Below are positions 9,524 through 43,195 of a DNA stretch of 64,000 bases, piece by piece. The first letter of the stretch is position 1. Each line of letters starts with the position of its first letter. The stretch covers positions 256,001-320,000 of the forward strand of contig CP060223.1 in assembly GCA_023898465.1 (NCBI GenBank). The letters run 5' to 3'. Position numbers and translations under genes: made by a program. This DNA is from Candidatus Nomurabacteria bacterium. GTDB lineage: Bacteria > Patescibacteriota > Patescibacteriia > HK-STAS-PATE-3. The notes beneath the pieces are model-generated. The model saw nothing but the letters and a program-made list of their open reading frames with translations, was not told the origin of the DNA and did not search any database.

Positions 9524-9598
9524 GGGTCCATAGCTCAATGGTAGAGCAACTGCCTTTTAAGCAGTGGGTTGGTGGTTCGAGCCCACCTGGACCCACCA
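9524..9598 (+). tRNA. tRNA-Lys (anticodon UUU), CCA encoded
   Basis: Cloverleaf read by eye. Acceptor GGGTCCA/TGGACCC, anticodon stem ACTGC/GCAGT with loop CTTTTAA, T-arm GGTGG-TTCGAGC-CCACC, discriminator A plus CCA. Confidence 0.9.
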
Positions 9599-9662
9599 GT
9601 CATATCGCGCTTTTTGCATACCCAAGAAGCGAGACCCAGCATAGCGTGGGTCTCGTGTGAGT

Positions 9663-10079
9663 TCAGACGCCTTTGCGGGCGTGGGGATTGTGGCGATAGA
9701 TCGCCATTCCCGGCTTTGCGGTACTGGGAACCTCGATCAGGATATCTCCGCTAGCACCGAAGACGTTTCGCGTCGTTGCCCCGAGGTCAACACGCAGGGT
9801 TGTCAGAGGCGCTGCTCCGAGCGGATCCCCGAGACAAATAATGTCTCGATCATGCAGCGTCACTCCTTGTTTGAGGCTGGCCGTATGCGTTCGTTGGAAC
9901 TGCACACTGCCGAGTACGCCAATCTTGATCCAGTCGGTCTGCGTAGCCGCTTGCGTCGACATAGTACCCCCATTCTTCCAGTGAAAGGCACGCACGGATC
10001 TCATCCTGAGAATGTGCAAATCTTGCCACGGAGTGTAGCGCTGTGGATTTTCTTTGTCAAGCAAAACGGACACACTCAA
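9663..10079 (-). CDS. Hypothetical protein (GC-rich island)
   Basis: The 138-aa ORF starts at a TTG. An internal ATG at 9962 (MSTQAATQTDWIKIG...) has a G-rich Shine-Dalgarno-like sequence and may be the real start. A 9-bp hairpin at 9631-9657 lies downstream. I recognised no family. Confidence 0.4.
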   Translation of the reverse strand: MSVSVLLDKENPQRYTPWQDLHILRMRSVRAFHWKNGGTMSTQAATQTDWIKIGVLGSVQFQRTHTASLKQGVTLHDRDIICLGDPLGAAPLTTLRVDLGATTRNVFGASGDILIEVPSTAKPGMAIYRHNPHARKGV

Positions 10080-10100
10080 GTGAGGTGTCCGTAGTTGGGG

Positions 10101-10898
10101 TTAGTTGACGGAGGCGATCTCTTCATCAGGGATTGCGGCTATCAAGCGTCCGAGCGCCTTTTGCAGCGAAAGATTAGAGCGGGCTAAGCGTTCATCATAT
10201 CGGAAGAAGTGAAAGGGGATAGCAGAGGGGTCGGTCAACGCCATTTGTCCAAGCGCTCCAAGCTGCTGGAATACTGCCCCAAGATCGAGTTCGAGGTCGA
10301 ACAGGAGCTCCCAATCAATGCAAGATCGAAGCGCTTCCCAGGGTAGTGGCTCTTCCATGCAGCATGAGCGCCCGGCCAGCATTCTGACAAAGTGGCAGAG
10401 CCCAGGGTTGAAGAAGCTTTTTCTCCTTTGATCAGTCAGCAAGGTGCTTCTTGGGTCAAAGGGGTACACGGTGTCGTCCTCTCCCTGCATGAGCCATCCC
10501 TTGAGCAGCTCAAGATCAACCACGCTGGTGACCAAATCTTGGGTGGCGAGGGCCTTGCGATCAAAGCTCACGATGTCGCCCCAGGGGATCGGCAGACAGA
10601 TTGAGGCAACAAGTTCCACCCAAGCACCTAGTGTGTCTTGGCGATCCTCTGGGACAACCAAGAGAAAAGAATCAAGAGTTCTGGGAAGTGCCATAGCACC
10701 AAGGGCGGAGAGAAAGTTCCCGGCTTTTTTTCCTACAGCGTCGATGATGAGGCTTCGTATAGGCTCACCATCAGTATCTTCCAAGATGCTTTGAGAATCC
10801 TCAAGACTTGAGCAGACGGTGATGGTGTGGCAGTTGATCCGAGCTGCCAAATGGCGGGCTCGTTTCTGACTACCAGAAAAAACCAAGAGGTGTGCCAT
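10101..10898 (-). CDS. Hypothetical protein with receiver-like (CheY-fold-like) N-terminus
   Basis: 265 aa. The N-terminal pattern LLVFSG...ITVCSS...SLIIDAVG resembles the beta1/beta2/beta3 pattern of REC domains. The C-terminal 150 aa are unrecognised. Divergent from the CHAP lipoprotein gene. Confidence 0.5.
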   Translation of the reverse strand: MAHLLVFSGSQKRARHLAARINCHTITVCSSLEDSQSILEDTDGEPIRSLIIDAVGKKAGNFLSALGAMALPRTLDSFLLVVPEDRQDTLGAWVELVASICLPIPWGDIVSFDRKALATQDLVTSVVDLELLKGWLMQGEDDTVYPFDPRSTLLTDQRRKSFFNPGLCHFVRMLAGRSCCMEEPLPWEALRSCIDWELLFDLELDLGAVFQQLGALGQMALTDPSAIPFHFFRYDERLARSNLSLQKALGRLIAAIPDEEIASVN

Positions 10899-10972
10899 AC
10901 TCAGACCTCCGTTGAGTTATGAAGGTGCTTCCTCCTATAGAGAAGTGTAGACGCATTGCGCATCTTCGACAA

Positions 10973-11391
10973 TACTTGACAACCCACTTCACAGGAGTAC
11001 ACTAAATGCACAATTGGTGGCGATCTCTGCCTGGCACTGACCAGGTTGTCCGGAGACGCCATGTTTTTGTATGCGCGTGTTCTTCCTCCTTGCCGCAGGG
11101 TGTAGCTCGGCTCCGCTCGCTACCCATTTCTCGGCATCGGTCTCTTTGCGATGATCGAAACGAAGAGCGTCTTTTTCTACTCTCCTGCAGGGGCGGTGCG
11201 GGAGCGCGGAATAGTTCCGGGCTTCATTTCCTCACATGAGGAAAGCGGCTTTGTTGCCGTTTTGCACCTTGAAATGCATGGAGGTTCGCCATGACTTGGC
11301 GTTTCCGACTCTTCCTGCTCATGGCCATCGCGTTGACCATGACACCCCTCGCTTTCATGACCGGCTGCCAGGAGCTGCCGACGGAGGGGGA
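10973..11391 (+). repeat. Copy A of a duplicated promoter + leader + lipoprotein signal-peptide module
   Basis: Near-identical to 14570..14894, except for a block of about 94 nt present only in copy A and a few substitutions. It ends 33 codons into the downstream CDS. Confidence 0.9.
10976..11003 (+). promoter_or_regulatory. Sigma70-like promoter (TTGACA-N16-TACACT) of module copy A
   Basis: Consensus -35 hexamer and a near-consensus -10, conserved base for base in copy B (14573..14600). Confidence 0.5.
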
Positions 11392-12028
11392 TTCACAGGA
11401 TCAAGTGGTTGAGAGTCCGGAAGCTCAACCCGGTCCAGCGATTCAGTCTACTGGGCCCGAATGGTATAATCAGGTCGTAAGTGAAGCAAAGTACACATTG
11501 TGCCAGCTTCGAAACGGCACATCGCATGAGGTCTATCAGGGTAAGGCTATGGGTGATTGGCCCTACCCACATCAAGGGGATTGTTGTAACGCCCTTGGTG
11601 TAGTCCGTCAATATATGTACGGTGGTGGCTCTCCAGGACCGCTTGGCGAATGGAATGGCTTCCAGCAAGGCGGTTGGTGCAAGTTCTTTGTCAACTTGGT
11701 GCTCTACCGCTCTAGCTATGGCTACCCGGGCGGACATTTGCTCTTGCCCACTTCTACGTATCGTTACAATAATCCACGCCCGGTTTCCGAAGCACAACCT
11801 GGATGGATCTTGCAGTCAGAAACACTACCTCATACTGCGATCGTAGTAGAACGACTAGGCGGTGGCTTGGATGTAATCGATTCAAACTGGATCGGAACTT
11901 ACAAGCGTCCGGACGGAAGTTATTACTACTCATATGCCATCGCAAGGCATGAAATCACAAATACGGAGTTGGATCGCTACGATTTCATGGCATATCGTCC
12001 GCATGAGGCGTGCGTGCTGCATAACTAG
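11291..12028 (+). CDS. Lipoprotein, CHAP / NlpC-P60 superfamily peptidoglycan amidase/peptidase
   Basis: Signal peptide with lipobox (LAFMTGC). Candidate catalytic Cys in GGWCKFFVNLV and His in LPHTAIVVE...DVIDSNW, the CHAP-like Cys/His/polar arrangement. Shine-Dalgarno GGAGG lies 7 nt upstream. Confidence 0.75.
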   Translation: MTWRFRLFLLMAIALTMTPLAFMTGCQELPTEGDSQDQVVESPEAQPGPAIQSTGPEWYNQVVSEAKYTLCQLRNGTSHEVYQGKAMGDWPYPHQGDCCNALGVVRQYMYGGGSPGPLGEWNGFQQGGWCKFFVNLVLYRSSYGYPGGHLLLPTSTYRYNNPRPVSEAQPGWILQSETLPHTAIVVERLGGGLDVIDSNWIGTYKRPDGSYYYSYAIARHEITNTELDRYDFMAYRPHEACVLHN

Positions 12029-12101
12029 ATAGTGGGGGGTGCTGGAAAGTTTTTCAGTTCCCCCCACCTCCCACAAAGTCAATTATTTACTTCATAAGTA
12101 T

Positions 12102-12617
12102 ATGAAAAAAATCCAAATAGTCTTTCTCTTATTTTCAAGCATTGTTCTTGCGTCGGTGATTTTTTATTCCGGACATGCTATTTCATATAAAAATACAACC
12201 TACGGATATTCTTTTAGTACAATAAAAAAGTCTAATATTAAAGTTCTTGATCCAGCGCTTGTTCAAGTTTCAATTATAGGAGAAGAGGTTATTGAGGAGA
12301 GTCCAATAATAAACATATATGCTATTAAGTTGGAGCAAGATTCTTTGTCTGCAACCCAAGAACTTGAAACGTGGGTAGGGGAAGATCTTAATGGTTTCTC
12401 TGATATTAATATTCAGAGTACAACGACCGAAACAGAAAAAATAATTAACGTTACTTATACGGGAGGGGGGATGTCTGGAAGTATTAAATACGTCGGATTT
12501 TATGTTTTCAATCAGGAAGAAAAAACAATAATTAAGGTAGTAGCTTCTCAGTATAATGATAATATGGAATTGTTTGAGGCCTACAAAAAAATTCTTTCTT
12601 CCTTTCAGTTAATATAA
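12102..12617 (+). CDS. Hypothetical membrane-anchored/exported protein (AT-rich)
   Basis: The ORF track starts at the GTG at 12039. The ATG at 12102 gives MKKIQIVFLLFSSIVLASVIFYSG, a signal anchor. No family recognised. Confidence 0.55.
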   Translation: MKKIQIVFLLFSSIVLASVIFYSGHAISYKNTTYGYSFSTIKKSNIKVLDPALVQVSIIGEEVIEESPIINIYAIKLEQDSLSATQELETWVGEDLNGFSDINIQSTTTETEKIINVTYTGGGMSGSIKYVGFYVFNQEEKTIIKVVASQYNDNMELFEAYKKILSSFQLI

Positions 12618-13255
12618 TGACCACCACTCATCGTCTCCTCATATTACTCATTGTCGTAGTTGCCGCAGGCTTTCTCTATCTTGGATTAAGATCAGATTCC
12701 TCCGATGTAACAACGACGAACAAAACAGTCAACAAAGATTTCCGTGAACTTGAAATGCTCAGTTCAGCTGGTCACAAGGTGTTTCAATCAGAGAATTATG
12801 ATTTCACCTATACGATTGATCATGGTGTTGACTGGAGCGTTAGCGAGGCTGCAGAGCCGACTTTGCTCACCACTTGGTTTTCTTTACCAAATCCAAATAG
12901 TGAAGAGGAAGAAAGAGATGATATTCCGAATGGGTTTAATACCTTTGAAAAAAATAGTTTTCGACTTGATGTATATCCTAACTCAGGTTCAGTAAGTCCA
13001 AATGGAGAAGCGGAGCTAAAAGATTGGTTAAAAAATGATCTTAATAGTGAGTATATTCCTGGAAGCTTTTTAACCTTATCCATTGCAAGAAACCGTTTAT
13101 TCAAAGTAGTTGATTTTCAGGGGATTGATGTGCGAGAGGCGCATTATTATCTATTTGGCTCTGCATTTGTATATGTCTTTTCAAGCGGTGATTTCACTGA
13201 GCAAGAAATGCGCGAGTTTATTAGCGGTTTTACCTACGAAAGAGCGCCTTTATAA
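12617..13255 (+). CDS. Hypothetical membrane-anchored/exported protein (AT-rich)
   Basis: 212 aa with an N-terminal TM helix (LLILLIVVVAAGFLYLGL). The start is a TAATG overlap with the upstream gene. Confidence 0.55.
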   Translation: MTTTHRLLILLIVVVAAGFLYLGLRSDSSDVTTTNKTVNKDFRELEMLSSAGHKVFQSENYDFTYTIDHGVDWSVSEAAEPTLLTTWFSLPNPNSEEEERDDIPNGFNTFEKNSFRLDVYPNSGSVSPNGEAELKDWLKNDLNSEYIPGSFLTLSIARNRLFKVVDFQGIDVREAHYYLFGSAFVYVFSSGDFTEQEMREFISGFTYERAPL

Positions 13256-13462
13256 GCGCTTCATCTCATCTTTATTTCTTTACTTGACGCATCTCAGTAG
13301 TCCGAGCATAATCATTTTTGGGTAGTAACCCACGTTTTGATAAGCAGGAGAAGTACGGTAGATTCGATGGATGCGCCATGCGCACCCCATCTGCGTTGGA
13401 TTGTCACACTGAACCTCGGGTCAGGATAGCACCCTGACAAATCTGGAAAGAAAGGAGGCGTC

Positions 13463-14470
13463 ATGAACCGCCTGTTTGTCGTACTCGCGCTGATCACCAT
13501 CGGGGCTCTGGGTTTTGTTGGCTGCGGCGGTAAGGACGCCGCTACGAAGCCGGAAGAAATCCGCAGTCCAGATCAGATCGTGCAGTCTGAGATTGTCTAT
13601 ACCGTGAACCCAGACTACTCAGGGGTGAATGTTTCGTGGAAAACAAACATCCCGACAGTTGGAAGGGTGTACTATGGTAGGACTCCTCAACCAACTGACT
13701 ACGTCATCGAGGAGGTGAGCACTACTCAACATTTGTTGTGTGCACCTCGACTCAGGGGAGATGCGCTCTTCTACTTCCAAGTGCAATCATCCTTTTCCGA
13801 GGAAGTGATTAGCGCTCGGGAACCGAGCGAAGGCGATACACTTCGCACCCCACGATGGGTTGATTGGTCTCCACCTACCGTAAGATGGGTCGATCCTCGA
13901 GAAGGCGCAATAAAGGGCGGGACGATTGATCTCACTGTTTCGGCAAACGAATACGTTGTCAACGGGGTGGTAGAGGTGAAATTCTTTATCGATGGCAGGG
14001 TCATCGCTGTAGTGACTGAACCCGATGACGGTGATAAGATCTTCGTCGTGCATGACTTCAATACTACCCAGCTCACCGATGGCTTGCATAGCTTTCACGC
14101 GTTGGCAACAGATGTAAACGGTAACAGAGAGTCAAGGGGAATTACGGTCGACATCGACAACTCGAAGCCGGTCATCTATCGATGGGATGCTCCGAGAAAT
14201 CAGCGGGAGATCGGGAATTCTATCAATTTGCGAGTGGTGGCTCAGGACTTTCGTGGTGAACACGTCGATGATGTGTACATCACCCTCGATGGTCAACCAT
14301 TTGCGAGGCTTGAGGTGTGTGAACTGCGAGCTAGCGGCGTAGGAGATGTGTGGTGTAGAGACGTTGATACGTCGACGCTGTCACCCGGTCAGCACTACTT
14401 CGGTGCCGTTTCAGTAGATCATGCTGGCAACGAGTCAGATCCGGTCTACATCGGCGTCATCAAGCAGTAG
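13463..14470 (+). CDS. Lipoprotein with two tandem Ig-like (bacterial Ig / Big-like) domains
   Basis: Signal peptide with lipobox (LGFVGCGG). Two similar modules of about 90 aa (IDLTVSAN..VKFFIDG..TDGLHSFHALATDVNGN and INLRVVAQ..VYITLDG..SPGQHYFGAVSVDHAGN). Shine-Dalgarno AAGGAGG. Confidence 0.6.
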   Translation: MNRLFVVLALITIGALGFVGCGGKDAATKPEEIRSPDQIVQSEIVYTVNPDYSGVNVSWKTNIPTVGRVYYGRTPQPTDYVIEEVSTTQHLLCAPRLRGDALFYFQVQSSFSEEVISAREPSEGDTLRTPRWVDWSPPTVRWVDPREGAIKGGTIDLTVSANEYVVNGVVEVKFFIDGRVIAVVTEPDDGDKIFVVHDFNTTQLTDGLHSFHALATDVNGNRESRGITVDIDNSKPVIYRWDAPRNQREIGNSINLRVVAQDFRGEHVDDVYITLDGQPFARLEVCELRASGVGDVWCRDVDTSTLSPGQHYFGAVSVDHAGNESDPVYIGVIKQ

Positions 14471-14569
14471 CCTTTCCAGTCCGTCAGGAATCCAACAGAG
14501 CCTGGGATCATCGATCTCGGGCTCTTCTCTTTTTGATACGCTCCAGAATGAAAAAGTGAAGTTTACTAT

Positions 14570-14894
14570 TACTTGACAACCCACTTCACAGGAGTACACT
14601 AAATGCACAATTGGTGGCGATCTCTGCCTGGCACTGACCAGGATGTCTGGAGACGCCATGTTTTTGTATAGGCGTATTCCACCCTCCCTTGCCGTGGCGT
14701 TGGGGAGCGCGGAATAGTTCCGGGCTTCATTTCCTCACATGAGGAAAGCGGCTTTGTTGCCGTTTTGCACTTTGAAATGCATGGAGGTTCGCCATGACTT
14801 GGCGTTTCCGACTCTTCCTGCTCATGGCCATCGCGTTGACCATGACACCCCTCGCTTTCATGACCGGCTGTCAGGAGCTGCCGACGGAGGGGGA
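14570..14894 (+). repeat. Copy B of the duplicated promoter + leader + lipoprotein signal-peptide module
   Basis: See copy A. The two copies are offset by 3597 nt at the 5' end. The first 33 codons (MTWRFRLFLLMAIALTMTPLAFMTGCQELPTEG) are identical at protein level. Confidence 0.9.
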
Positions 14895-15492
14895 GACTTC
14901 GGTGATCTCTGATGAGTTGCCGGATGCTTCACCCTCAGCTCAGTCAAGCCCGATGACTTGGCCCTCTTCGATCCAGGATTTCAAACTCCCTTATGATGGG
15001 ATCCGGGATGCATGCGGGGGTCAGATTTGGAAGGTTGTTTGCGGGTACGGATGTGGTTATCATCACAACACAAACTACATGGCCGCCGCGTACCATTCGA
15101 TTGATCTTGTACGGCAGGATGCGCCGACCACTCATAGCGCAGTACTCGCTCCGGCGCGTGGCATCGTTTCGTTTGTCGGATGGAGGAATGGGTACGGTTG
15201 GTGCGTGGAGATGGATCATCGAAACGGCTGGAAGTCGCTTGTGGCCCATCTCGAAACGGATCCTTGGGAATTCGTCCATACCTATGACGACCTGCGGCAG
15301 GGGACTTTCCTGGGCTATGCAGGGAACAGCGGAGCGAGTACGACACCCCACATTCACTTCTCGGTGTGGCGGAACAACGTCACTCATACGCTCGATGGCG
15401 TATCGTTGATCAACCCGCGTCTAAATGGGCGATACAATTCCGGCAATGATTATGTTGCGCCACCGACGGGAAATCCGAACCCGATTCCTTAA
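14794..15492 (+). CDS. Lipoprotein, M23 (LytM/lysostaphin-type) metallopeptidase
   Basis: The N-terminal 33 aa are the same as in the CHAP protein. GNSGASTTPHIHFSV matches the M23 HxH motif. An upstream YHSIDL stands where HxxxD is expected, with spacing one residue short. Confidence 0.8.
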   Translation: MTWRFRLFLLMAIALTMTPLAFMTGCQELPTEGETSVISDELPDASPSAQSSPMTWPSSIQDFKLPYDGIRDACGGQIWKVVCGYGCGYHHNTNYMAAAYHSIDLVRQDAPTTHSAVLAPARGIVSFVGWRNGYGWCVEMDHRNGWKSLVAHLETDPWEFVHTYDDLRQGTFLGYAGNSGASTTPHIHFSVWRNNVTHTLDGVSLINPRLNGRYNSGNDYVAPPTGNPNPIP

Positions 15493-15498
15493 CACGAT

Positions 15499-17600: not shown

Positions 17601-17601
17601 G

Positions 17602-18932: not shown

Positions 18933-18933
18933 G

Positions 18934-20288: not shown

Positions 20289-20290
20289 TT

Positions 20291-20959
20291 ATGGATTATG
20301 GTGTATACTTATTATTAGTTATTGCGGGCCTAGAACTTTGGTTGACAATATACATATTTACTCGCTACCAAAGAACAAAAGCTATTTTTTTCTTTGGACT
20401 CTTTACTGCTTGTGTGACTGGATGGGTGCTAACTAATTCTATTCCGCTTCTTTTTTCCTATTCAAGTTGGCAATCTGATTTTTTGCAACGCCTCTCGTTT
20501 TCTTTTGCTGCATTTATTTTTCCTTTTCTTTATTATTATATTCTTTTACATCCATTTCCAAGCATTGATATCAACAAGCGATTCATATTATTCACATCCC
20601 TCCCGGCCTTCTTTGTTTCTATTGCCACTCTCTTTGATAAAAACTTTGTTATAGGATTCTATGATACCTCAGTAAGGGCAACAATATACGGCGACTCTTT
20701 TTGGATGTATGCGGTAGTTATGTTGCTATTTGCAATTCTTATTCCTGTGGAAATAATTTTAAAAAGAAGAAGACTGGATGGATATTATCGCTACCAATTC
20801 AAATTATTATTCAGCGCCTATTTGTTTTCAGCGGCAGTAGGATTACTAATTAATTTAATATTGCCATATTTTTTCGACTTAAAAATTAACTATTGGCTTG
20901 GGCCCGCGTCATCGATTATTTGGGTGAGTATGGTTTGGTGGGTTATTAATAGAAGGTAA
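20291..20959 (+). CDS. Stand-alone 7TM module, paralog 6
   Basis: The ATG lies 2 nt after the paralog 5 stop. Closest to paralog 5 (..ASSIIWVSMVWWVINRR*). Confidence 0.75.
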   Translation: MDYGVYLLLVIAGLELWLTIYIFTRYQRTKAIFFFGLFTACVTGWVLTNSIPLLFSYSSWQSDFLQRLSFSFAAFIFPFLYYYILLHPFPSIDINKRFILFTSLPAFFVSIATLFDKNFVIGFYDTSVRATIYGDSFWMYAVVMLLFAILIPVEIILKRRRLDGYYRYQFKLLFSAYLFSAAVGLLINLILPYFFDLKINYWLGPASSIIWVSMVWWVINRR

Positions 20960-20981
20960 TGTTTAATTGCGATTTTCAAAA

Positions 20982-21641
20982 ATGACAATAGGACATGTAG
21001 TTGAAGAATTTAAAAGTCGGTATATTAAAAGACAACTAGATCATAATTTTATTGTTTTAGAGACTCAAAATAACAACCAACTAAATTTATCATATAGATT
21101 AAGATACGAAGTATATTGTCTAGAATGTAAATATTTAGACGTGAATAATTATCCCAATAGGTCTGAAAAGGATGAGTATGATGATTGTTCAATACATTTC
21201 ATCGCAATAAATAAAAAGACAAAAAATGTTGTTGGCACAATTCGACTTATTAAACGCACTAATAGGAATTTGCCAATAGAGCATGATTTTGGAATTTCTC
21301 TGAATGGATCAATTAGTTCTAAAAAAGTTGTGGAGATTTCTAGACTAGCGGTTGATAAAAAATTTAGGAAGTCGAGTTTAAAGCATCCAAGTATTATGTT
21401 AGGTTTATTAAAAGCATGCTATAGATACGCCGAAGAAAATGGAATTGCAATGTTTGTAGCGGCAATAGATCAAAATGTATATAATATGTTAAAAAAGTTT
21501 CGTTTTTCATTTAATTTATTAGGGGAACCAAAACATTATATGGGTTCAATCTCAGTACCCGTGTTAATTGATATCGAAAAAGAATCGCAGTGGTTAAAAA
21601 TAGTAAATCCTGGACTATGGACATTTCTTTCAAGCAATTAG
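20982..21641 (+). CDS. GNAT-fold N-acyl amino acid / acyl-homoserine-lactone-synthase-like acyltransferase (FeeM / PEP-CTERM-associated acyltransferase-like)
   Basis: LSYRLRYEVYCLECKYLD, IHFIAI...VVGTIRLI, VVEISRLAVDKKFR and MFVAAID follow the pattern I recall for the LuxI-related Acetyltransf_5/N-acyl amino acid synthase family. The ORF track starts at the TTG at 20967; the ATG at 20982 is preferred. Confidence 0.55.
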   Translation: MTIGHVVEEFKSRYIKRQLDHNFIVLETQNNNQLNLSYRLRYEVYCLECKYLDVNNYPNRSEKDEYDDCSIHFIAINKKTKNVVGTIRLIKRTNRNLPIEHDFGISLNGSISSKKVVEISRLAVDKKFRKSSLKHPSIMLGLLKACYRYAEENGIAMFVAAIDQNVYNMLKKFRFSFNLLGEPKHYMGSISVPVLIDIEKESQWLKIVNPGLWTFLSSN

Positions 21642-22276
21642 CTCATAAAATTGTATTATTCTATTTAAGACGGGCTAGCCACAAAAAATACCTAACATTT
21701 AGCTTTAGCGATCTTATTATACTCTGTCCCCCAAACGTGTTCCCGCCTAATTCGTTTACCACTGACCTAATGGCTAAGTGGCTAGTAAACGAAGAGATGG
21801 AAGGTAAACAGGTTTTAGAGATGGGTTGTGGAAGTGGATACATTTCGATTATTGCCGCACGAAAAGGGGCAAAAGTAATTGCAAGCGACATCAGCCCTAT
21901 CGCGGTTGATGCCGCAAAAATCAATACCATAATAAATAAGATAAAAAATGTCGAATGTTATTGCTCGGACTTATTTTCTAACTTAGAAGGAAAGTTTGAT
22001 TTAATTCTCTTCAACGCACCTTTTTTTCATGGAGAACCCACTTCTTTATTAGATAACAATTGGATGAGTAAGGATGGGGAGGTGGTCAGTAAATTTTTTA
22101 AAGACGCAAGAGAATATATTAATCCAATGGGGAAGGTAGTTATTACTAGTTCGACTCTAGTTAATCAAGATGCTCTGAAAATATTAATTAAAGAAAGCGG
22201 ATTTAATATTGAAAACGTGAAAACAAAAAATATTATTATTGAAAAATTTTTCTTGTATGAATGTAGAGCTTTTTAA
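21617..22276 (+). CDS. Class I SAM-dependent methyltransferase (HemK/PrmC-like amino-methyltransferase pattern)
   Basis: Motif I is VLEMGCGSGYISI, the acidic loop is ASDIS, and motif IV is FNAPFF (an NPPY-like variant). The start is ambiguous (GTG at 21590 or ATG at 21617) and overlaps the upstream gene. Confidence 0.7.
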   Translation: MDISFKQLAHKIVLFYLRRASHKKYLTFSFSDLIILCPPNVFPPNSFTTDLMAKWLVNEEMEGKQVLEMGCGSGYISIIAARKGAKVIASDISPIAVDAAKINTIINKIKNVECYCSDLFSNLEGKFDLILFNAPFFHGEPTSLLDNNWMSKDGEVVSKFFKDAREYINPMGKVVITSSTLVNQDALKILIKESGFNIENVKTKNIIIEKFFLYECRAF

Positions 22277-23021
22277 TAGAAATCAACCATTTATAACTAA
22301 AAAAGAACAAAAAATTCTCACAAAACAGAAAGTTTGTTTTATTGGATGTGGTCTTGCAAGTCAAGCCGCACTCCTTATTGCCAGGACAGGTATTGGAAAA
22401 ATAGTACTTTGTGATGGAGACAAGGTCGAGTTGAGTAATCTTAACAGGCAAGCATTTGACATTGGTGATATTGGAGAAAACAAAGCAGAAAGCTTAATGA
22501 GAAAGATATTAAGCATCAATTCAAATATTGAAGTGGAGCAGTATCCGGTTTTTTTAAAAAAATCGATTATTTCAAATGTAATAAAAGATTCAGATATTGT
22601 AGTGAGCACAGTTGATGCGGGTCCTTTATATTTTGAAATTCAGGAATATATTAATAAAAAAGGCATTATGGGAATATTCCCCATGAATATTGCCTTTGGA
22701 TCACTCGTATTCGTATCAAAAAATGGAAAGGGTGATTTTAAATCGTTATTTGGGGAGAAATTACCTGAAAATAATTCTGAATTTTTTTATCAACTTTACA
22801 ATAAACTTAAACAAAATGTACCAAGCTATTTATCTCCTCATATTGAAATCTTATTAAGTGGATTTAAAACAAACAGTCCAATTCCACAGCTAGGATTAAC
22901 GACTTTACTTACCGCATCTTTGATTACTGAGATAATACTGGCTGGGAACAGGGCTGAGCAATTATTGTTAACTCCAAGATTCTATTATTTTGATATTCGT
23001 GAATTCGTTCGAAATGGATAA
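22257..23021 (+). CDS. ThiF/MoeB/HesA-family E1-like adenylyltransferase
   Basis: KVCFIGCGLASQAALLIARTGIGKIVLCDGDKVELSNLNRQ carries the canonical ThiF nucleotide-binding signature. The protein is about 254 aa with no rhodanese or CxxC tail. It overlaps both neighbours. Confidence 0.75.
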   Translation: MNVELFNRNQPFITKKEQKILTKQKVCFIGCGLASQAALLIARTGIGKIVLCDGDKVELSNLNRQAFDIGDIGENKAESLMRKILSINSNIEVEQYPVFLKKSIISNVIKDSDIVVSTVDAGPLYFEIQEYINKKGIMGIFPMNIAFGSLVFVSKNGKGDFKSLFGEKLPENNSEFFYQLYNKLKQNVPSYLSPHIEILLSGFKTNSPIPQLGLTTLLTASLITEIILAGNRAEQLLLTPRFYYFDIREFVRNG

Positions 23022-25785
23022 ATTGCTAATCCCACAAAATTTAGCACTTATTATATTGCTCTTCGGATATTTAAGTCTGATAATTCTTCTTTTGAGACGC
23101 GAGAACACAAGTAGTAGATTATTTGGTGCTACCGTTATTACTCTCTCTCTTTGGATATTATCAATTTTACTTTTAAATATCAGCTCCTCAAAAGAAGAAA
23201 TTTTATTCTTTTCGCGATCGTCATTTATCGGGCCAATTATTCTCATACCAACATTCCTTCTTTTTTCTTGGTATTTTCCGAAAAAAACTATACATCTAAG
23301 GAAAAGTATTATTATTGTCGTTTCTTTAACGGCATGCTTCTTTTTAATTGCGACGTTTACGCCGTATGTAATTCAAGATGTCACAATAAAAGTAGGTGAA
23401 GGAGTCAGTCTAACCTATCAACTTGGAACACTATATTTTTTCCAATTTATTTTTTTAGCATTCTCATTACTTTATTCTTTTTTTATTCTTTATAAAAAAT
23501 ATAAAAAATCAAAAGGCCTAGAAAAATTACAAATTAGATATCTTTTTCTTGGCACCGTTATTACTGCAGTATTGACCTTGAGTACTAACGTAATTTTACC
23601 AATTTTTAATTTTTCATCTCTTGCTGGATTTGGCCCTCTTAGTACTCTATTTCTCTTATTTTTTATTTCATATGCCATCATCCGCCACCGCCTCCTCGAC
23701 ATCCGTCTTGTTATCACGCGTTCCTTAATTTATTTTTTCCTTATCCTGTTCGTCGCAGGATCATTTACTGGAATTACCTTACTCGCAAAGTTATTATTTG
23801 AAGAATTTGTTGGTGAAATAACCGCTACAATACTTGTTTCTCTCATCATCGTTATTGGTTTCGAGCCATTGAAGCGATGGGTCTCTCGTTCTACTGACTC
23901 GGTTTTTTATAAGGCAAAAATTGACTACGCTGATGTGTTGCGGGAAATCAGCGAAATTATTAACCGTGAAATTGTCCTGGATCCGCTCGTCACCTCCATC
24001 AGCGCCACGCTTGAGAGTAGGCTCAAGCTCAAGCACGCGGGCATTGCATTGAAAAGCGCCAAGGGGGATTTTGTTGAATACATAAACCACGATCACTTTG
24101 ATCCCAAAACCTTTTCCAGCCGATCCGGTATGATCGGATTCTTACGTTTCACATCTCGTATCACCATTTTAGAATCGCTCGAGCGCAAAATTCAGGACAC
24201 GAGCGAAGGGGACGAATTAAAAGAGTTGAAGCGATCGCGCGAGGAAATGGAAACGAACCACATTGCCTTAGCTGCTCCGATTGTGGCGCAAGGCAAATTC
24301 AACGCAGTCCTCATCCTGGGGCCGAAACTTTCCGGTGATAGCTTCTCGACCGAAGAGTTGAAGATGATTGAAACGTTGACTCCGCAGATCGGATCAGCGA
24401 TTGAGAAATCCATGCTCTTCGAAGAGGTGAAGAACTTCTCCAGTCAATTAAAGGTGAAAGTTGATGAGGCGACAAAGGAGTTGAAAGAGCGCAATCGTTT
24501 CCTTGGCGCTTTGCAGGATATCACGAGCACCATTACGCACTCTCTTGATTACAAAAAAGTAGGACAGGACATTGTGGACGGAGTAGCCAAGAAGCTCGGT
24601 TACATCGGTGCCGTGCTCCTGCTCTATGATCCAAAGACTGGCCAGTCATGGGCTGAGGCAATTACGCAAACGCCGGTTACTCGCGCGGCAATGAAATTAC
24701 TGCCCAAGCCGGTGAACGAATACCATGGGCACGTGGATGAGAATTCCATGACCGACCAAGTTATTTTGACTGGTGAAATGCGCGAAAGTGATTCACTAGC
24801 TGAATTCTTAGCACCGGCCGTGCCTAAAGCTTTTTGTTTCGCCATGCAGAAGTTGATTCGCGCAAAGTATATTGTGGCAGTGCCAATCTATGCCGAGGGT
24901 GAAATTCTCGGTGCCTTGGTTTTTGTGCTCGGGAAGAAGAAAGAGGAGATCAGTAGTCAGGAGCGGGCTATGATGATCGCTTTAGGTGACCAGGCCGGAA
25001 TCGTGCTGCACAATATTAAACTCTTTGATCGCATCCAGGATACGAATAAGCAGTTGGAGCAGGCGAATGAACACTTGAAGCAGCTTGATCAAGCTAAGTC
25101 GGAATTCGTCTCCATTGCCTCGCACCAATTACGCACGCCGATGACTGGCATTATGGGCTATCTTTCCATGATGGTGCAGGGGGATTTCGGTAAAATGGAG
25201 CCGGAGCACACCAAACTGCTGACTGAATTGTTGAGTGAGAGTCAGCGCATGATTCGTCTCATCAACCTCTTCTTGAACGTCTCAAAGATTGAGTCAGGTA
25301 AGATGACGATTAACAAGCAGCCGACGCAGATTAAGGATCTCATTGACCAACAGATTAAGGATCAGAAAAAGCCAGCCGAGGATAAAGGATTGGTGCTGAA
25401 AGTGGAAGTTGATAAAGAGCTGCCGATAATTGAAGCTGACGGTGATAAGCTCATGAACGTGGTGCAGAACCTGATTGATAACGCTATCAAATATACAGAG
25501 CGGGGAAGCGTGACTGTTCGCGCCTTTCAGACCGATGGCCATATCCAGGTAGAAATTCAAGACACTGGCGTTGGTATTAAGCGCGAAGATGTGCATGAAC
25601 TCTTTGGTAAGTTTGTGCGCGGGTCTGGCATTGCGCAGATCAATCCTGATGGCTCCGGTCTCGGACTCTTTATTGCCAAGTCAATTGTGGAAATGCACGG
25701 CGGTAAGATTTGGGTAGAATCAGAAGGTGAAGGGAAAGGTACTAAATTCGCATTCACGATACCAATTACACAGCCGAAAAAATGA
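23014..25785 (+). CDS. Sensor histidine kinase: N-terminal 7TM module + GAF-like regions + HisKA + HATPase_c
   Basis: About 230 aa of 7TM region, then long soluble GAF-like regions. H-box FVSIASHQLRTPMT, N-box NLIDNAIKYT, G-boxes DTGVGI and GSGLGL. The ATG at 23014 overlaps the ThiF stop by 8 nt. Confidence 0.9.
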   Translation: MDKLLIPQNLALIILLFGYLSLIILLLRRENTSSRLFGATVITLSLWILSILLLNISSSKEEILFFSRSSFIGPIILIPTFLLFSWYFPKKTIHLRKSIIIVVSLTACFFLIATFTPYVIQDVTIKVGEGVSLTYQLGTLYFFQFIFLAFSLLYSFFILYKKYKKSKGLEKLQIRYLFLGTVITAVLTLSTNVILPIFNFSSLAGFGPLSTLFLLFFISYAIIRHRLLDIRLVITRSLIYFFLILFVAGSFTGITLLAKLLFEEFVGEITATILVSLIIVIGFEPLKRWVSRSTDSVFYKAKIDYADVLREISEIINREIVLDPLVTSISATLESRLKLKHAGIALKSAKGDFVEYINHDHFDPKTFSSRSGMIGFLRFTSRITILESLERKIQDTSEGDELKELKRSREEMETNHIALAAPIVAQGKFNAVLILGPKLSGDSFSTEELKMIETLTPQIGSAIEKSMLFEEVKNFSSQLKVKVDEATKELKERNRFLGALQDITSTITHSLDYKKVGQDIVDGVAKKLGYIGAVLLLYDPKTGQSWAEAITQTPVTRAAMKLLPKPVNEYHGHVDENSMTDQVILTGEMRESDSLAEFLAPAVPKAFCFAMQKLIRAKYIVAVPIYAEGEILGALVFVLGKKKEEISSQERAMMIALGDQAGIVLHNIKLFDRIQDTNKQLEQANEHLKQLDQAKSEFVSIASHQLRTPMTGIMGYLSMMVQGDFGKMEPEHTKLLTELLSESQRMIRLINLFLNVSKIESGKMTINKQPTQIKDLIDQQIKDQKKPAEDKGLVLKVEVDKELPIIEADGDKLMNVVQNLIDNAIKYTERGSVTVRAFQTDGHIQVEIQDTGVGIKREDVHELFGKFVRGSGIAQINPDGSGLGLFIAKSIVEMHGGKIWVESEGEGKGTKFAFTIPITQPKK

Positions 25786-26216
25786 AACAGGTAAGGGGGA
25801 AACAACCAAAACGCATCCTACTTGTCGAGGACGAGCCGCTCTTAGCAACGATGTATATGTTGGCGTTGCAGCAACGAGTAAAGGCTGAGGTGTACGGGGC
25901 TAAGACACGCGAAGAAGCGGAGCGCATTATTGAGCGTGTGAAGCCGGATTTAGTGCTGCTTGATCTCATGATTCCCTCGATTACCATCCAAGACACGGAG
26001 CAGGATTTTCATCATCCAGTAGGGCTGCAATTCTTAGCCCAAATTCGGAAGAGTCCAAAGACGCGTTCAATCAAGGTAATGATTCTCTCCAACCTTGATG
26101 CGGATGAGCAACGCAAGCGGGCCATTGATTTAGGTGCCGAGGATTACCTATTAAAAGCCAGTCTGCAGCCGCACGCGATTGTGGAAAAGGTAAAGCATAG
26201 TTTAGGGATAAAATAA
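25782..26216 (+). CDS. Stand-alone response-regulator receiver (CheY-like) protein
   Basis: ILLVEDEP, DLVLLDLMIP and a lysine in ..LLKAS. There is no output domain. ATGA overlap with the kinase stop. Confidence 0.85.
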   Translation: MKQVRGKQPKRILLVEDEPLLATMYMLALQQRVKAEVYGAKTREEAERIIERVKPDLVLLDLMIPSITIQDTEQDFHHPVGLQFLAQIRKSPKTRSIKVMILSNLDADEQRKRAIDLGAEDYLLKASLQPHAIVEKVKHSLGIK

Positions 26217-43194: not shown

Positions 43195-43195
43195 T

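What the first reader, a model, noticed from the sequence alone, without database searches (positions are those of the whole stretch)
9524..26216. tRNA-Lys marks the start of a 16.6-kb accessory region with a three-way compositional mosaic
Composition departs from the backbone immediately 3' of tRNA-Lys. Segments at 9.6-12.0 kb and 13.3-15.5 kb are visibly GC-rich. Segments at 12.0-13.3 kb and 15.5-23.7 kb are strongly AT-rich. Backbone-like composition resumes only inside the kinase gene. None of the genes here is a recognisable housekeeping gene. tRNA 3' flanks are classic integration hot spots, but I found no integrase and no repeat of the tRNA-Lys 3' end, so this looks like an old, repeatedly remodelled island.
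Basis: partly seen in the sequence, partly recalled or inferred. Interest (0 to 1): 0.5.

Follow-up and report, generated by a model that had tools for sequence, protein, structure and literature searches.

The report
Swappable signal-and-sensor cassette, not tRNA island
The odd-composition stretch after tRNA-Lys is mostly a signalling operon conserved across ultra-small Patescibacteria, and its AT-rich core (signal-making enzymes plus the membrane sensor half of a kinase) is swapped as a unit between strains, much like the strain-specific "dialect" loci of quorum sensing.

Summary
The compositional mosaic is real. The AT-rich blocks lie 5.7-7.9 SD below the backbone GC. Tetranucleotide distance reaches z about 20. 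Third-codon-position GC (GC3) jumps from 0.12-0.30 to 0.55-0.68 inside the kinase gene. There is no integrase and no second copy of the tRNA-Lys 3' end.

The tRNA-island reading does not hold for the main part. Positions 16941-26216 form one tightly packed 11-gene operon of a Candidatus Nomurabacteria MAG:
- six stand-alone HisKA_7TM membrane paralogs
- a LuxI/FeeM-type acyltransferase
- a HemK-like methyltransferase
- a ThiF-like enzyme
- a 7TM-GAF-GAF histidine kinase
- a receiver-only response regulator

The same architecture, and the same AT-rich trough ending at the 7TM/cytoplasm junction of the kinase, recurs in other Patescibacteria. All 22 long orthologous kinases show it (mean GC3 0.27 versus 0.61).

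Two natural genome pairs with 85-99% identical flanks share no DNA homology across exactly [synthase genes + kinase 7TM domain]. Among 58 orthologs, sensor-domain similarity is uncorrelated with kinase-core similarity.

I read this as a pherotype-like, recombining synthase/sensor cassette, analogous to agr and comQXP. That function is inferred, not shown.

The left 7 kb is a variable neighbourhood of secreted wall-hydrolase and lipoprotein genes. tRNA-Lys adjacency looks incidental.

The parts
9524..9598 (+). tRNA-Lys (anticodon TTT). It marks the left edge of the odd-composition stretch. Its adjacency is probably incidental.
   Evidence: ARAGORN and Rfam RF00005 at 75 bits. No repeat of its 3' end in the window. 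No tRNA near the cluster in 19 of 20 other loci.
10101..10898 (-). 265-aa ORF of unknown function, GC3 0.57.
   Evidence: No Pfam, NCBIfam or PHROG hit. No homolog in the fetched loci.
10973..11391 (+). Copy 1 of a duplicated promoter + leader + lipoprotein signal-peptide module. It starts at TTGACA-16-TACACT.
   Evidence: Direct repeats D1/D2 at 95-99% identity. Alignment A3 with a 94-nt indel. Promoter-like site at 10976.
11291..12028 (+). 245-aa predicted lipoprotein. Its first 33 residues are identical to those of the M23 peptidase.
   Evidence: Translation. Homologs at 37-41% identity lie next to the kinase cluster in L086, L087, L088 and L017.
12039..13255 (+). Two AT-rich ORFs (192 and 212 aa, GC3 0.29-0.32). 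They follow the lipoprotein gene after an 11-nt gap, and the stop of the first shares one base with the start of the second.
   Evidence: The 212-aa ORF has weak homologs (24-28% identity) within 10 kb of the kinase in L008, L010 and L016.
13463..14470 (+). 335-aa secreted protein with a bacterial Ig domain (Big_7).
   Evidence: Pfam PF17957, E 5e-10. Terminator-like hairpin at 14497-14525.
14570..14894 (+). Copy 2 of the promoter + leader + signal-peptide module.
   Evidence: A Logan contig of the same organism ends about here: the 22,212-bp contig carrying the operon, read to its end.
14794..15492 (+). 232-aa M23 peptidoglycan peptidase lipoprotein.
   Evidence: Pfam PF01551, E 2e-18. 51% identical homologs lie beside the kinase cluster in L086 and L087.
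15669..16682 (+). 337-aa membrane-anchored ORF of unknown function with intermediate composition (GC3 0.36).
   Evidence: No family hit.
16941..20959 (+). Array of six stand-alone HisKA_7TM paralogs of about 220 aa: 16941-17600, 17602-18261, 18261-18932, 18985-19605, 19602-20288, 20291-20959. Each ends where the kinase's 7TM domain ends.
   Evidence: Pfam PF16927 above its cut-off for copies 1 and 2 and below it for copy 4. All six match a custom HMM and align with each other. Gene calls. Each best-hits stand-alone copies of other loci at 35-45% identity. AF2 model of copy 2 has pLDDT 90.4 and seven helices.
20967..21641 (+). LuxI/FeeM-type acyltransferase, the putative signal synthase. First gene of the hypervariable cassette. 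GC3 0.22.
   Evidence: Pfam FeeM, Acetyltransf_5 and Autoind_synth. NCBIfam TIGR03694 at 139.8 bits against a cut-off of 111.95. Profile hits to the AHL synthases BjaI, RpaI and LasI and to FeeM in the PDB. Invariant R41, E62, D64, D67, R88, E118, R121.
21617..22276 (+). HemK2/MTQ2-like SAM methyltransferase, a putative tailoring enzyme within the cassette.
   Evidence: Pfam MTS, E 1.3e-19. TIGR00537 at 109 bits against a cut-off of 87.
22257..23021 (+). ThiF/E1-like adenylyltransferase, a putative tailoring enzyme within the cassette. GC3 0.235.
   Evidence: Pfam PF00899, E 3.8e-29. Below all NCBIfam equivalog cut-offs. Homologs occupy the same position in L003, L086 and L087.
23014..23680 (+). 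Hypervariable 7TM sensor domain of the histidine kinase (codons 1 to about 222). Right end of the cassette. GC3 0.12-0.30.
   Evidence: Pfam HisKA_7TM, E 6.7e-16. Only 29-30% identical to the closest orthologs, against 68-83% for the domains just after it and for the kinase core. GC3 profile.
23681..25785 (+). Conserved part of the kinase: two further hydrophobic helices, GAF-GAF, HisKA and HATPase_c. Backbone composition.
   Evidence: Pfam. Hydropathy. More than 60 Patescibacteria orthologs at 42-57% identity over about 98% of the length. H-box invariant in A2.
25782..26216 (+). 144-aa receiver-only response regulator. Its start overlaps the kinase stop by 4 nt.
   Evidence: Pfam PF00072, E 3.8e-16. 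62-65% identical orthologs sit directly after the kinase in L003 and L005.
26334..26531 (+). 65-aa ORF that marks the conserved right flank. A promoter-like site lies at 26237 and a terminator-like hairpin at 26515-26541.
   Evidence: Gene call. 55.6% identical ORF lies just before the P-type ATPase in L003. Promoter and terminator scan.

Best explanation
The 16.6-kb stretch is two things placed side by side, not one tRNA-borne island.

(A) Positions 9.6-16.7 kb are a variable neighbourhood of secreted proteins. These are a lipoprotein, two AT-rich ORFs, an Ig-domain protein, an M23 wall peptidase and a 337-aa unknown. Two of these genes share a 95-99% identical promoter, leader and signal peptide.

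(B) Positions 16941-26216 are one 11-gene operon that is conserved across Patescibacteria:
- six stand-alone 7TM paralogs
- a LuxI/FeeM-type acyltransferase
- a methyltransferase
- a ThiF-like enzyme
- a 7TM-GAF-GAF histidine kinase
- a receiver-only regulator

The deepest AT-rich part (20967 to about 23680) consists of the enzymes plus the 7TM sensor domain of the kinase. It corresponds to a cassette that is replaced as a unit in related genomes. The right breakpoint there lies at or shortly after the end of the kinase's 7TM domain. The left one lies just after the last stand-alone 7TM gene. This explains why composition 'resumes inside the kinase gene'.

Inferred mechanism:
1. The acyltransferase, with its tailoring enzymes, makes a lipophilic acylated signal.
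2. The membrane-embedded 7TM bundle of the cognate kinase senses it.
3. The two conserved helices and the GAF domains transmit the signal to the kinase core.
4. The core phosphorylates the receiver-only regulator.

Because synthase and sensor are exchanged together, strains carry different signal/receptor 'dialects'. This resembles agrBDC and comQXP pherotypes (own knowledge for agr). The stand-alone 7TM proteins probably act as accessory receptor subunits of the same complex.

Shown: operon conservation, the family-wide composition trough, cassette replacement in two genome pairs, and the decoupled history of the sensor and the kinase core.

Inferred: the signal chemistry, the ligand-receptor relation, the role of the stand-alone copies, and why the cassette pool is AT-rich.
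For: Operon structure: the 11 genes overlap or lie at most 52 nt apart. No strong terminator-like site lies inside. Promoter- and terminator-like sites flank the operon.

Conservation: the kinase architecture is shared by more than 60 Patescibacteria proteins. The closest kinases all have 3-5 tandem stand-alone 7TM genes plus an enzyme or enzymes, then kinase and regulator.

Trough: in all 17 orthologous loci first tested, GC3 of the 7TM domain is 0.18-0.39 against 0.39-0.74 for the cytoplasmic part. For the 22 long kinases the means are 0.27 and 0.61. 71 of 74 HisKA_7TM kinases show the same sign. FeeM-like genes have GC3 0.17-0.36. The membrane-segment control is negative. The bias also reaches amino-acid composition: F+Y+M+I+N+K (AT-rich codons) make up 0.38-0.40 of the cassette enzymes, against 0.17-0.28 in backbone soluble proteins.

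Cassette replacement:
- L086 and L087 have flanks 95-99% identical. There is no blastn homology between L086 7818-10654 and L087 7293-10639. One carries a 184-aa ORF, FeeM, ThiF and kinase codons 1-218. The other carries a 505-aa PaaK-like ligase, a longer ThiF and kinase codons 1-213.
- L088 and L089 have flanks about 85% identical. Homology is lost over [methyltransferase, FeeM, kinase codons 1-269] versus [150-aa ORF, GNAT-like ORF, kinase codons 1-275]. The stand-alone arrays stay 80-83% identical.

Decoupling across 58 orthologs: 7TM-domain identity does not correlate with any cytoplasmic domain (Spearman -0.07 to 0.01). The cytoplasmic domains correlate with each other at 0.52-0.77. Nearest neighbours agree in 1 of 58 cases, against 25-27 of 58. 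Example pairs are core 98% / sensor 18%, core 95% / sensor 28%, and the reverse, sensor 63% / core 48%.

Synthase: it passes the TIGR03694 cut-off. Its profile hits AHL synthases BjaI at 9e-10 and RpaI at 5e-9. Synthase similarity is discordant with the kinase core: L003-L005 have core 72% and synthase 30%, while L005-L086 have synthase 59% and core 49%.

Other cassettes: another cassette carries a BioF/Kbl-family PLP enzyme. That enzyme also matches the CqsA-type autoinducer-synthase model, below its cut-off.

Stand-alone copies linked to the kinase: kinases with 2-4 fused HisKA_7TM modules exist.

Literature: Bernard et al. 2020 (PMC7567580) already list CPR LuxI homologs next to sensor kinases, including in Nomurabacteria. 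The comQXPA pherotype pattern of a variable N-terminal membrane domain and a conserved cytoplasmic domain is described in PMC4008528.
Against: - No allelic partner of this particular genome was found. Cassette replacement is shown in relatives and only inferred for the window.
- No signal molecule, binding or cross-specificity data exist.
- The regulator has no output domain, so the regulated process is unknown.
- The stand-alone 7TM array is also AT-rich, yet it is conserved between the swapped pairs. Cassette turnover alone therefore does not explain the whole trough.
- At about 25% mean identity the sensor domain is near saturation. This by itself weakens correlations. The pairs with 90-98% identical cores but 18-34% identical sensors are not explained by saturation.
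- Synthase-sensor co-variation is only moderate (Spearman 0.47 on non-independent pairs).
- TIGR03694 is named for an exosortase context that is not seen in this cluster.
Confidence: 0.65

Rival explanations
1. One reading: a single genomic island integrated at the 3' flank of tRNA-Lys, later degraded and remodelled, with integrase and att sites lost. Its right end happens to fall in the kinase gene.
For: Composition departs right after the tRNA. No housekeeping genes lie in the stretch. The genes to the left of the operon differ from those in the closest relative, L003. A second AT-rich block lies about 2 kb downstream of tRNA-Glu in the same window.
Against: There is no integrase, transposase or phage family and no repeat of the tRNA 3' end. 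The right 9.3 kb is a conserved operon whose right flank is syntenic with L003. The intragenic composition step occurs in every ortholog. No tRNA lies within 10 kb in 19 of 20 other loci.
Confidence: 0.1
2. There is no horizontal exchange. The AT-rich trough is maintained in place, either by selection (for example slow translation or regulated low expression of membrane receptors) or by locally AT-biased mutation with weak GC-restoring forces in fast-evolving genes.
For: The trough is present in all orthologous loci, whatever the genome GC. The stand-alone arrays are AT-rich even where they are vertically conserved between pairs. The bias extends to amino-acid composition, so it is old.
Against: Membrane segments of backbone genes are not AT-rich at third positions. 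The soluble enzymes are the most AT-rich. Near-identical genomes carry non-homologous cassettes with different gene content. The same sensor type occurs with divergent kinase cores.
Confidence: 0.15
3. The cluster does not mediate cell-cell signalling. The FeeM/OlsB-like acyltransferase makes membrane aminolipids, and the 7TM kinase with its paralogs monitors or remodels the envelope. Variability would then reflect host or phage pressure on surface lipids.
For: There are weak NCBIfam hits to ornithine-lipid OlsB acyltransferases. The function of TIGR03694 is unknown. FeeM-type enzymes are discussed among aminolipid synthases in PMC11631085 (listed only, not read). M23 and lipoprotein wall-hydrolase genes are recurrent neighbours of the cluster.
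Against: The best structural relatives by sequence profile are AHL synthases, and the LuxI-type charged residues are invariant. The enzyme set at this position changes class between alleles: LuxI-like, alpha-oxoamine synthase, PaaK-like ligase, GNAT. It changes together with the sensor domain, which fits ligand/receptor pairing better than bulk lipid synthesis.
Confidence: 0.15

Closest known systems
Pherotype loci of Gram-positive quorum sensing (B. subtilis comQXPA; S. aureus agrBDCA)
   Same: The signal-producing or processing genes lie directly upstream of a multi-pass membrane histidine kinase on the same strand. The polymorphic block covers those genes plus the N-terminal membrane sensor domain. 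The cytoplasmic kinase domain and the regulator stay conserved (PMC4008528, for comQXPA; agr from my own knowledge). Here the same pattern is seen.
   Different: There is no peptide precursor here. The signal enzymes are LuxI/FeeM-type acyltransferases or other small-molecule enzymes. The sensor is a HisKA_7TM bundle, the regulator is receiver-only, and tandem stand-alone sensor paralogs are present. The organisms are Patescibacteria. Functional pherotypes have not been shown.
Membrane-kinase receptors of lipophilic autoinducers paired with their synthase (LuxM/LuxN, AinS/AinR, CqsA/CqsS; own knowledge)
   Same: An autoinducer synthase sits next to a kinase whose sensor is a multi-helix membrane domain without a large external domain. 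One allele in a relative (L004) carries an alpha-oxoamine-synthase-family enzyme, the superfamily of CqsA.
   Different: There is no sequence membership. The kinase is not a hybrid kinase and no LuxU-type relay is seen. The sensor family is HisKA_7TM, not LuxN or CqsS.
CPR LuxI homologs adjacent to sensory kinases (Bernard et al. 2020, PMC7567580)
   Same: This is the same kind of gene pair in the same phyla. The paper's Table S4 lists Nomurabacteria and Kerfeldbacteria examples.
   Different: In the parts of that paper I searched (main text and held supplements), I found no mention of HisKA_7TM or 7TM. The paper reports the adjacency only. The stand-alone arrays, the cassette replacement and the composition trough are additions here.
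TIGR03694 PEP-CTERM/exosortase-associated acyltransferase with the PrsK/PrsR two-component system
   Same: The acyltransferase scores above the TIGR03694 cut-off and is encoded beside a multi-TM GAF-containing kinase and a regulator.
   Different: The kinase's sensor and GAF part gives no PrsK hit. The regulator is a 144-aa receiver, not an NtrC-type PrsR. No exosortase or PEP-CTERM gene is in the cluster.
7TMR-DISM / HisKA_7TM receptors (Pfam PF07695, PF16927)
   Same: There are Pfam matches. The model is a seven-helix bundle whose nearest solved folds are GPCR bundles.
   Different: Most copies here are stand-alone, without any signalling module. The fold matches are weak (E about 5e-3) and do not show homology.

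Membership tests
tRNA-integrated genomic island | Integrase or recombinase gene next to the tRNA | tested here: not met
   No integrase, transposase or phage family hit among the ORFs scanned in 9.6-26.2 kb (Pfam; PHROGs).
tRNA-integrated genomic island | Direct repeat of the tRNA 3' end at the far boundary | tested here: not met
   Only the tRNA itself matches, with up to 3 mismatches over 25 nt or 2 over 16 nt.
tRNA-integrated genomic island | Atypical composition relative to the backbone | tested here: met
   GC z from -3.5 to -7.9 for the AT-rich parts. Tetranucleotide z up to 20.
tRNA-integrated genomic island | Absent as a block from close relatives, with the flanks joined | tested here: inconclusive
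   No sister genome was found. In the closest relative, L003, the kinase operon is present and joined to the same right flank. This argues against island status for 16.9-26.2 kb.
LuxI/FeeM acyl-synthase superfamily (PF00765, PF21926; NCBIfam TIGR03694) | Score above the curated cut-offs | tested here: met
   FeeM 58 bits (cut-off 27), Autoind_synth 47.3 bits (cut-off 24). TIGR03694 139.8 bits (cut-off 111.95).
LuxI/FeeM acyl-synthase superfamily (PF00765, PF21926; NCBIfam TIGR03694) | Conserved charged residues of the LuxI active site (R, E-x-D-x-x-D, R, E-x-x-R; own knowledge of the LuxI family) | tested here: met
   R41, E62, D64, D67, R88, E118 and R121 are invariant in 9 sequences. The profile aligns to BjaI, RpaI and LasI. 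Residue-by-residue equivalence to LuxI numbering rests on my own reading.
LuxI/FeeM acyl-synthase superfamily (PF00765, PF21926; NCBIfam TIGR03694) | Genome context with a PEP-CTERM/exosortase system (defines TIGR03694) | not tested
   No exosortase is among the cluster genes. The rest of the genome is not available.
LuxI/FeeM acyl-synthase superfamily (PF00765, PF21926; NCBIfam TIGR03694) | The product is an acyl-homoserine lactone or an N-acyl amino acid | not testable with these tools
   Needs expression and mass spectrometry.
PrsK/PrsR two-component system | Kinase matches the PrsK model; the regulator is an NtrC-type PrsR | tested here: not met
   No PrsK hit for residues 1-679 at E <= 1e-3. 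PrsK is not among the top full-length hits. The regulator is 144 aa, receiver only. The PEP-CTERM regulator model scores 28.8 bits against a cut-off of 502.6.
Pherotype-type polymorphic quorum-sensing locus (agr / comQXP kind) | The hypervariable block covers the signal-production genes plus the kinase sensor domain, with a conserved kinase core | tested here: met
   Two genome pairs. 58-ortholog domain statistics. For the window itself: sensor 29-30% identical against 62-83% for the linker, GAF1 and kinase-core domains relative to the closest orthologs (GAF2 42-45%).
Pherotype-type polymorphic quorum-sensing locus (agr / comQXP kind) | Alternative alleles within one species | tested here: inconclusive
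   L086 and L087 have 95-99% identical flanks, which is compatible with one species. No genome-wide ANI is available, and no allele partner was found for this MAG.
Pherotype-type polymorphic quorum-sensing locus (agr / comQXP kind) | Peptide pheromone precursor | tested here: not met
   The genes overlap or abut, leaving no room for a small precursor gene. The enzymes are small-molecule types.
Pherotype-type polymorphic quorum-sensing locus (agr / comQXP kind) | Signal specificity between alleles | not testable with these tools
   Needs biochemical or genetic assays.
HisKA_7TM (PF16927) | Score above the Pfam gathering threshold | tested here: met
   Kinase 59.2 bits, copy 2 41.1 bits and copy 1 34.6 bits, all above the 28.6 cut-off. 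Copy 4 scores 22.4, below it. Copies 3, 5 and 6 are not detected by Pfam. All six join the family through alignment A1 and a custom HMM, E 4e-55 to 5e-76.

The most novel reading that the evidence does not exclude
Patescibacteria (CPR) carry a widespread, pherotype-like communication locus. In it, a small-molecule autoinducer synthase (LuxI/FeeM-like, CqsA-like or others), its tailoring enzymes and the GPCR-like 7TM sensor domain of a dedicated kinase are exchanged together as an AT-rich recombining cassette. The tandem 'orphan' 7TM paralogs would be extra receptor subunits, for example for sensing foreign dialects. This would be the first case of dialect diversification outside peptide systems. 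It would occur in ultra-small episymbionts, next to wall-hydrolase genes that could be the regulated output.
Probability: 0.35. Interest if true: 0.8.

Novelty: new variant of a known kind. Interest (0 to 1): 0.6.

Why it matters
How ultra-small, largely uncultured Patescibacteria recognise kin and hosts is an open question. This locus is conserved and easy to recognise. Its synthase and sensor half are swapped together between near-identical genomes.

Practical consequences:
- It offers concrete, testable pairs of cognate and non-cognate synthase/receptor alleles.
- It points to a possible new receptor type for lipophilic signals: a HisKA_7TM bundle, with fused and stand-alone forms.
- It is a caution for genome scans. 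A sharp composition step inside a gene can mark a recurrent domain-level recombination junction of a conserved operon rather than the edge of an inserted island.
- The 95-99% identical promoter/leader/signal-peptide repeat breaks short-read assemblies of this genome.

Tried and rejected
1. Membrane-protein codon artefact. Rejected: backbone hydrophobic segments have GC3 0.53 against 0.50 elsewhere, and the soluble enzymes are the most AT-rich.

2. Stand-alone 7TM genes as recently displaced former sensor domains, or as silent donors for gene conversion into the kinase. Rejected: all 56 stand-alone copies best-hit stand-alone copies of other loci, never kinase sensor domains. They are only 16-25% identical to the kinase sensor of the same operon. 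They are conserved like the flanks in the swapped pairs.

3. Phage or mobile origin of the left 7 kb. No PHROG hits appear apart from the generic M23 domain, and there are no integrase or transposase hits.

4. Known RNA elements in the duplicated leader or elsewhere. Only the tRNA passes in Rfam.

5. The DnaQ-like anchor found nothing in 185,579 species genomes and one 28%-identical hit in JGI metagenomes.

6. Word-indexed homolog searches with the acyltransferase and with 7TM copy 2. These returned essentially only this MAG's own proteins. Context had to be reached through the kinase.

7. PrsK/PrsR membership. Not met.

8. Direct PDB sequence search. With the single acyltransferase it found nothing; only the 9-sequence profile did. 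The lipoprotein has no PDB relative.

9. Tortosa et al. 2001 on comQXP was not available to read. I therefore make no claim about GC content of the comQXP variable region.

Full report
**1. The observation**

The window carries tRNA-Lys(ttt) at 9524-9598. Outside the two odd blocks, 1-kb GC averages 0.491 (SD 0.022, range 0.447-0.554).

The AT-rich segments are far outside this range:
- 12.0-13.3 kb: 0.366 (z -5.7)
- 16.9-20.96 kb: 0.361 (z -5.9)
- 20.96-23.7 kb: 0.317 (z -7.9)

The 'GC-rich' segments are 0.533 and 0.527 (z +1.9 and +1.6). They are inside the backbone range and atypical only by tetranucleotide distance (z 3.6-4.4).

Tetranucleotide distance starts to rise right after the tRNA. 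It peaks at z about 20 at 21-24 kb and returns to backbone by 24-26 kb.

Inside the kinase gene, GC at third codon positions (GC3) goes from 0.12-0.30 (codons 1-220) to 0.55-0.68 (from about codon 290).

There is no second copy of the tRNA 3' end and no integrase, transposase or phage family hit. The upstream genes are RecR, DnaB and a DnaQ-like exonuclease.

**2. What is encoded**

The sequence belongs to a 'Candidatus Nomurabacteria bacterium' MAG with a 1.08-Mb contig.

From 16941 to 26216 there are eleven + strand genes that overlap or are at most 52 nt apart:
- Six paralogous membrane proteins of about 220 aa. Pfam HisKA_7TM scores above threshold for two of them, and all six are related by alignment and a custom HMM.
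- A LuxI/FeeM-type acyltransferase. It matches Pfam FeeM and Autoind_synth, and NCBIfam TIGR03694 at 139.8 bits against a cut-off of 111.95.
- A HemK2/MTQ2-like methyltransferase.
- A ThiF-like enzyme.
- A 923-aa kinase: HisKA_7TM, two more hydrophobic helices, GAF-GAF, HisKA, HATPase_c.
- A 144-aa receiver-only regulator.

Each stand-alone 7TM protein ends exactly where the kinase's 7TM domain ends, just before its conserved RHRLLDIR loop.

The left part (9.6-16.7 kb) encodes a 265-aa unknown on the minus strand, then on the plus strand:
- a lipoprotein
- two AT-rich ORFs that abut it
- a Big_7 protein
- an M23 peptidase
- a 337-aa unknown

The lipoprotein and M23 genes share a 95-99% identical module that begins at a TTGACA-16-TACACT promoter-like site and runs through the leader and the first 33 codons.

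**3. The operon is conserved, and so is its odd composition**

The full kinase architecture occurs in more than 60 Patescibacteria proteins at 42-57% identity.

The three closest kinases (L003, L004, L005) each sit behind 3-5 tandem stand-alone 7TM genes plus an enzyme or enzymes, and are followed by the regulator.

The composition pattern repeats in these loci. Stand-alone copies have GC3 0.25-0.45, the enzymes 0.17-0.24 and the kinase 7TM domain 0.15-0.30. The kinase then steps up to 0.5-0.9.

A scan of species-representative genomes with a kinase alignment extended the comparison to 17 orthologous loci, counting the window and L003-L005. All of them show the step, with a mean difference of 0.33 and a minimum of 0.13. 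With the later loci, the 22 long kinases average 0.27 against 0.61, and 71 of 74 HisKA_7TM kinases show the same sign.

Two checks bear on the cause in the window:
- Membrane segments of backbone genes are not AT-rich at third positions (0.53 against 0.50; ATPase 0.50 and 0.50).
- The bias reaches amino-acid composition. F+Y+M+I+N+K (AT-rich codons) make up 0.38-0.40 of the cassette enzymes against 0.17-0.28 in backbone proteins.

The step inside the kinase is therefore not the scar of an insertion in this genome.

**4. Why the step is there: a replaceable cassette**

Among 58 full-length orthologs, mean pairwise identity by domain is as follows:
- 7TM domain: 25%
- the two conserved helices: 46%
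- GAF1 and GAF2: 44-47%
- kinase core: 64%

7TM-domain identity is uncorrelated with every cytoplasmic domain (Spearman -0.07 to 0.01). The cytoplasmic domains correlate with each other at 0.52-0.77. Nearest neighbours agree in 1 of 58 cases, against 25-27 of 58.

Saturation cannot explain the extreme pairs:
- cores 98%, 95%, 93% and 90% identical, with sensors 18%, 28%, 30% and 34% identical
- conversely, a sensor 63% identical with a core 48% identical

At the DNA level there are two natural genome pairs:
- L086 and L087 come from two assemblies with flanks 95-99% identical. They have no detectable homology between L086 7818-10654 and L087 7293-10639. One carries a 184-aa ORF, a FeeM-like gene, ThiF and kinase codons 1-218. 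The other carries a 505-aa PaaK-like ligase, a longer ThiF and kinase codons 1-213.
- L088 and L089 have flanks about 85% identical. They lose homology over methyltransferase + FeeM-like + kinase codons 1-269 versus a 150-aa ORF + a GNAT-like ORF + kinase codons 1-275. The stand-alone arrays remain 80-83% identical.

In both pairs the replaced unit is the enzymes plus the sensor domain. The right breakpoint lies at or shortly after the end of the 7TM domain (kinase codons about 215 and about 270). The left one lies just after the last stand-alone 7TM gene. The window's equivalent is 20967 to about 23680, which is its GC3 minimum.

Relative to its closest orthologs, the window's kinase is 29-30% identical in the sensor and 68-74% in the next two helices. 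It is 62-63% identical in GAF1, 42-45% in GAF2 and 80-83% in the kinase core.

**5. How it most likely works (inferred)**

The acyltransferase family profile finds the AHL synthases BjaI (9e-10), RpaI (5e-9) and LasI, and also FeeM, in the PDB. Seven charged residues are invariant. I read these as the LuxI-family active-site set, from my own knowledge.

Alternative alleles in relatives carry other small-molecule enzymes at the same place:
- an alpha-oxoamine-synthase-family PLP enzyme, which also matches the CqsA-type autoinducer-synthase model below its cut-off
- PaaK-like ligases
- a GNAT

Synthase similarity is discordant with kinase-core similarity. L003-L005 have core 72% and synthase 30%. 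L005-L086 have synthase 59% and core 49%. Synthase similarity tracks the sensor moderately (Spearman 0.47; the pairs are not independent).

The AF2 model of a stand-alone copy is confident (pLDDT 90.4, pTM 0.88). It is a seven-helix bundle whose nearest solved folds are GPCR bundles, but only weakly (E about 5e-3, TM 0.5-0.7).

The simplest reading is that a lipophilic acylated signal is made by the cassette enzymes and sensed within the membrane by the cognate 7TM domain. The signal would then be relayed through the conserved helices and GAF domains to the kinase and on to the receiver-only regulator. Co-replacement of synthase and sensor keeps the pair matched, as in comQXPA (PMC4008528) and agr (own knowledge).

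The stand-alone 7TM proteins are an old, separate subfamily: 56 of 56 best-hit other stand-alone copies. The domain profile finds 2,422 cluster representatives at E <= 1e-10, and most of the best 150 are about 220-aa stand-alone proteins. In some genomes they are fused, with 2-4 modules in front of a kinase. This argues that they work in the same membrane complex. Their exact role is unknown.

**6. The tRNA and the left block**

No tRNA lies within 10 kb of the cluster in 19 of 20 other loci.

In L003 the kinase and regulator are followed, after two inserted genes, by a homolog of the 65-aa ORF and by the P-type ATPase (63% identity). The operon, not tRNA-Lys, is therefore the ATPase's conserved neighbour.

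The genes left of the operon differ between the window and L003. Even so, homologs of the lipoprotein (37-41% identity) and of the M23 peptidase (51% identity) lie beside the kinase cluster in L086, L087, L088 and L017. Those loci also show repeated 5' modules among such genes.

The left block is best described as a variable neighbourhood of secreted wall-acting proteins linked to the signalling operon. Integration at the tRNA can be neither shown nor excluded there, because no sister genome was found.

**7. Comparison with what is known, and novelty**

Bernard et al. 2020 already reported CPR LuxI homologs adjacent to sensory kinases, including in Nomurabacteria and Kerfeldbacteria.

I found no paper that mentions pherotypes in Patescibacteria. 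HisKA_7TM appears in only two papers, both on archaeal and eukaryotic kinases.

The system is not PrsK/PrsR. It has no peptide pheromone. It is not a sequence member of the LuxN or CqsS families.

I rate it a new variant of a known kind: a polymorphic synthase/sensor signalling locus. The gene pair itself is already known in outline.

**8. Verdict**

Confidence in the structural and evolutionary account is high: a conserved operon, a family-wide trough and a replaceable synthase-plus-sensor cassette. Confidence in the signalling function is moderate. Interest is 0.6.

Noticed in passing
window 39667-45392: A second AT-rich block (GC 0.40, z -4; tetranucleotide z 6-9) lies about 2.2 kb downstream of tRNA-Glu(ctc) at 37382-37456. 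It has three + strand genes: a 1175-aa SNF2/Helicase_C protein, a 514-aa DUF2779 protein and a 233-aa unknown. It sits between a GT4 glycosyltransferase and HrcA, and looks like a small defence-type islet.
   Followed up: partly
window 10973-11391 and 14570-14894: A 95-99% identical direct repeat with a 94-nt indel. It starts exactly at a TTGACA-16-TACACT promoter-like site and covers a long leader plus the first 33 codons (lipoprotein signal peptide) of two different genes. Similar shared 5' modules occur among lipoprotein and M23 genes around the kinase cluster in L086 and L087. No Rfam family matches the leader.
   Followed up: partly
L086 6450-6947; L087 5256-5540: An IS200-type Y1 transposase gene (full length in L086, a fragment in L087) sits inside the stand-alone 7TM array of two related genomes.
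   Followed up: no
proteins P0124, P0128, P0157 (about 1500 aa); P0129, P0133, P0136 (about 1090 aa): Histidine kinases with two to four HisKA_7TM modules fused in tandem ahead of GAF/PAS-HisKA-HATPase. These are natural fusions of what are separate genes in the window.
   Followed up: partly
L004 8462-9670: At the position held by the LuxI/FeeM-like gene in the window, this relative has a BioF/Kbl-family PLP enzyme (alpha-oxoamine synthase). It also matches the CqsA-type autoinducer-synthase model at 195 bits, below the cut-off of 428.
   Followed up: partly
L003 5016-6464; L009 1875-3302 and 4929-6356; L086 4950-6410: Proteins of about 475-486 aa consisting of a 7TM domain plus a GAF-like part without a kinase core. 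They occur upstream of the kinase in several loci, sometimes in place of the stand-alone arrays.
   Followed up: no
window 14.7-14.9 kb: A 22.2-kb Logan contig of the same organism (SRR12358676) ends at the second copy of the 99% repeat. This repeat therefore breaks short-read assemblies.
   Followed up: no
window 9657-10094 (+) and 9663-10079 (-): Two fully overlapping ORFs of 145 and 138 aa on opposite strands, in the GC-rich 500 nt right after tRNA-Lys. Neither has any family hit, so it is unclear whether either is a gene.
   Followed up: partly
window 26334-26531: A 65-aa ORF between the regulator and the NUDIX gene. It has the best promoter-like site of the region (26237, 11 of 12 matches) and a terminator-like hairpin (26515-26541). 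It is conserved at 55.6% identity in front of the ATPase in L003.
   Followed up: no
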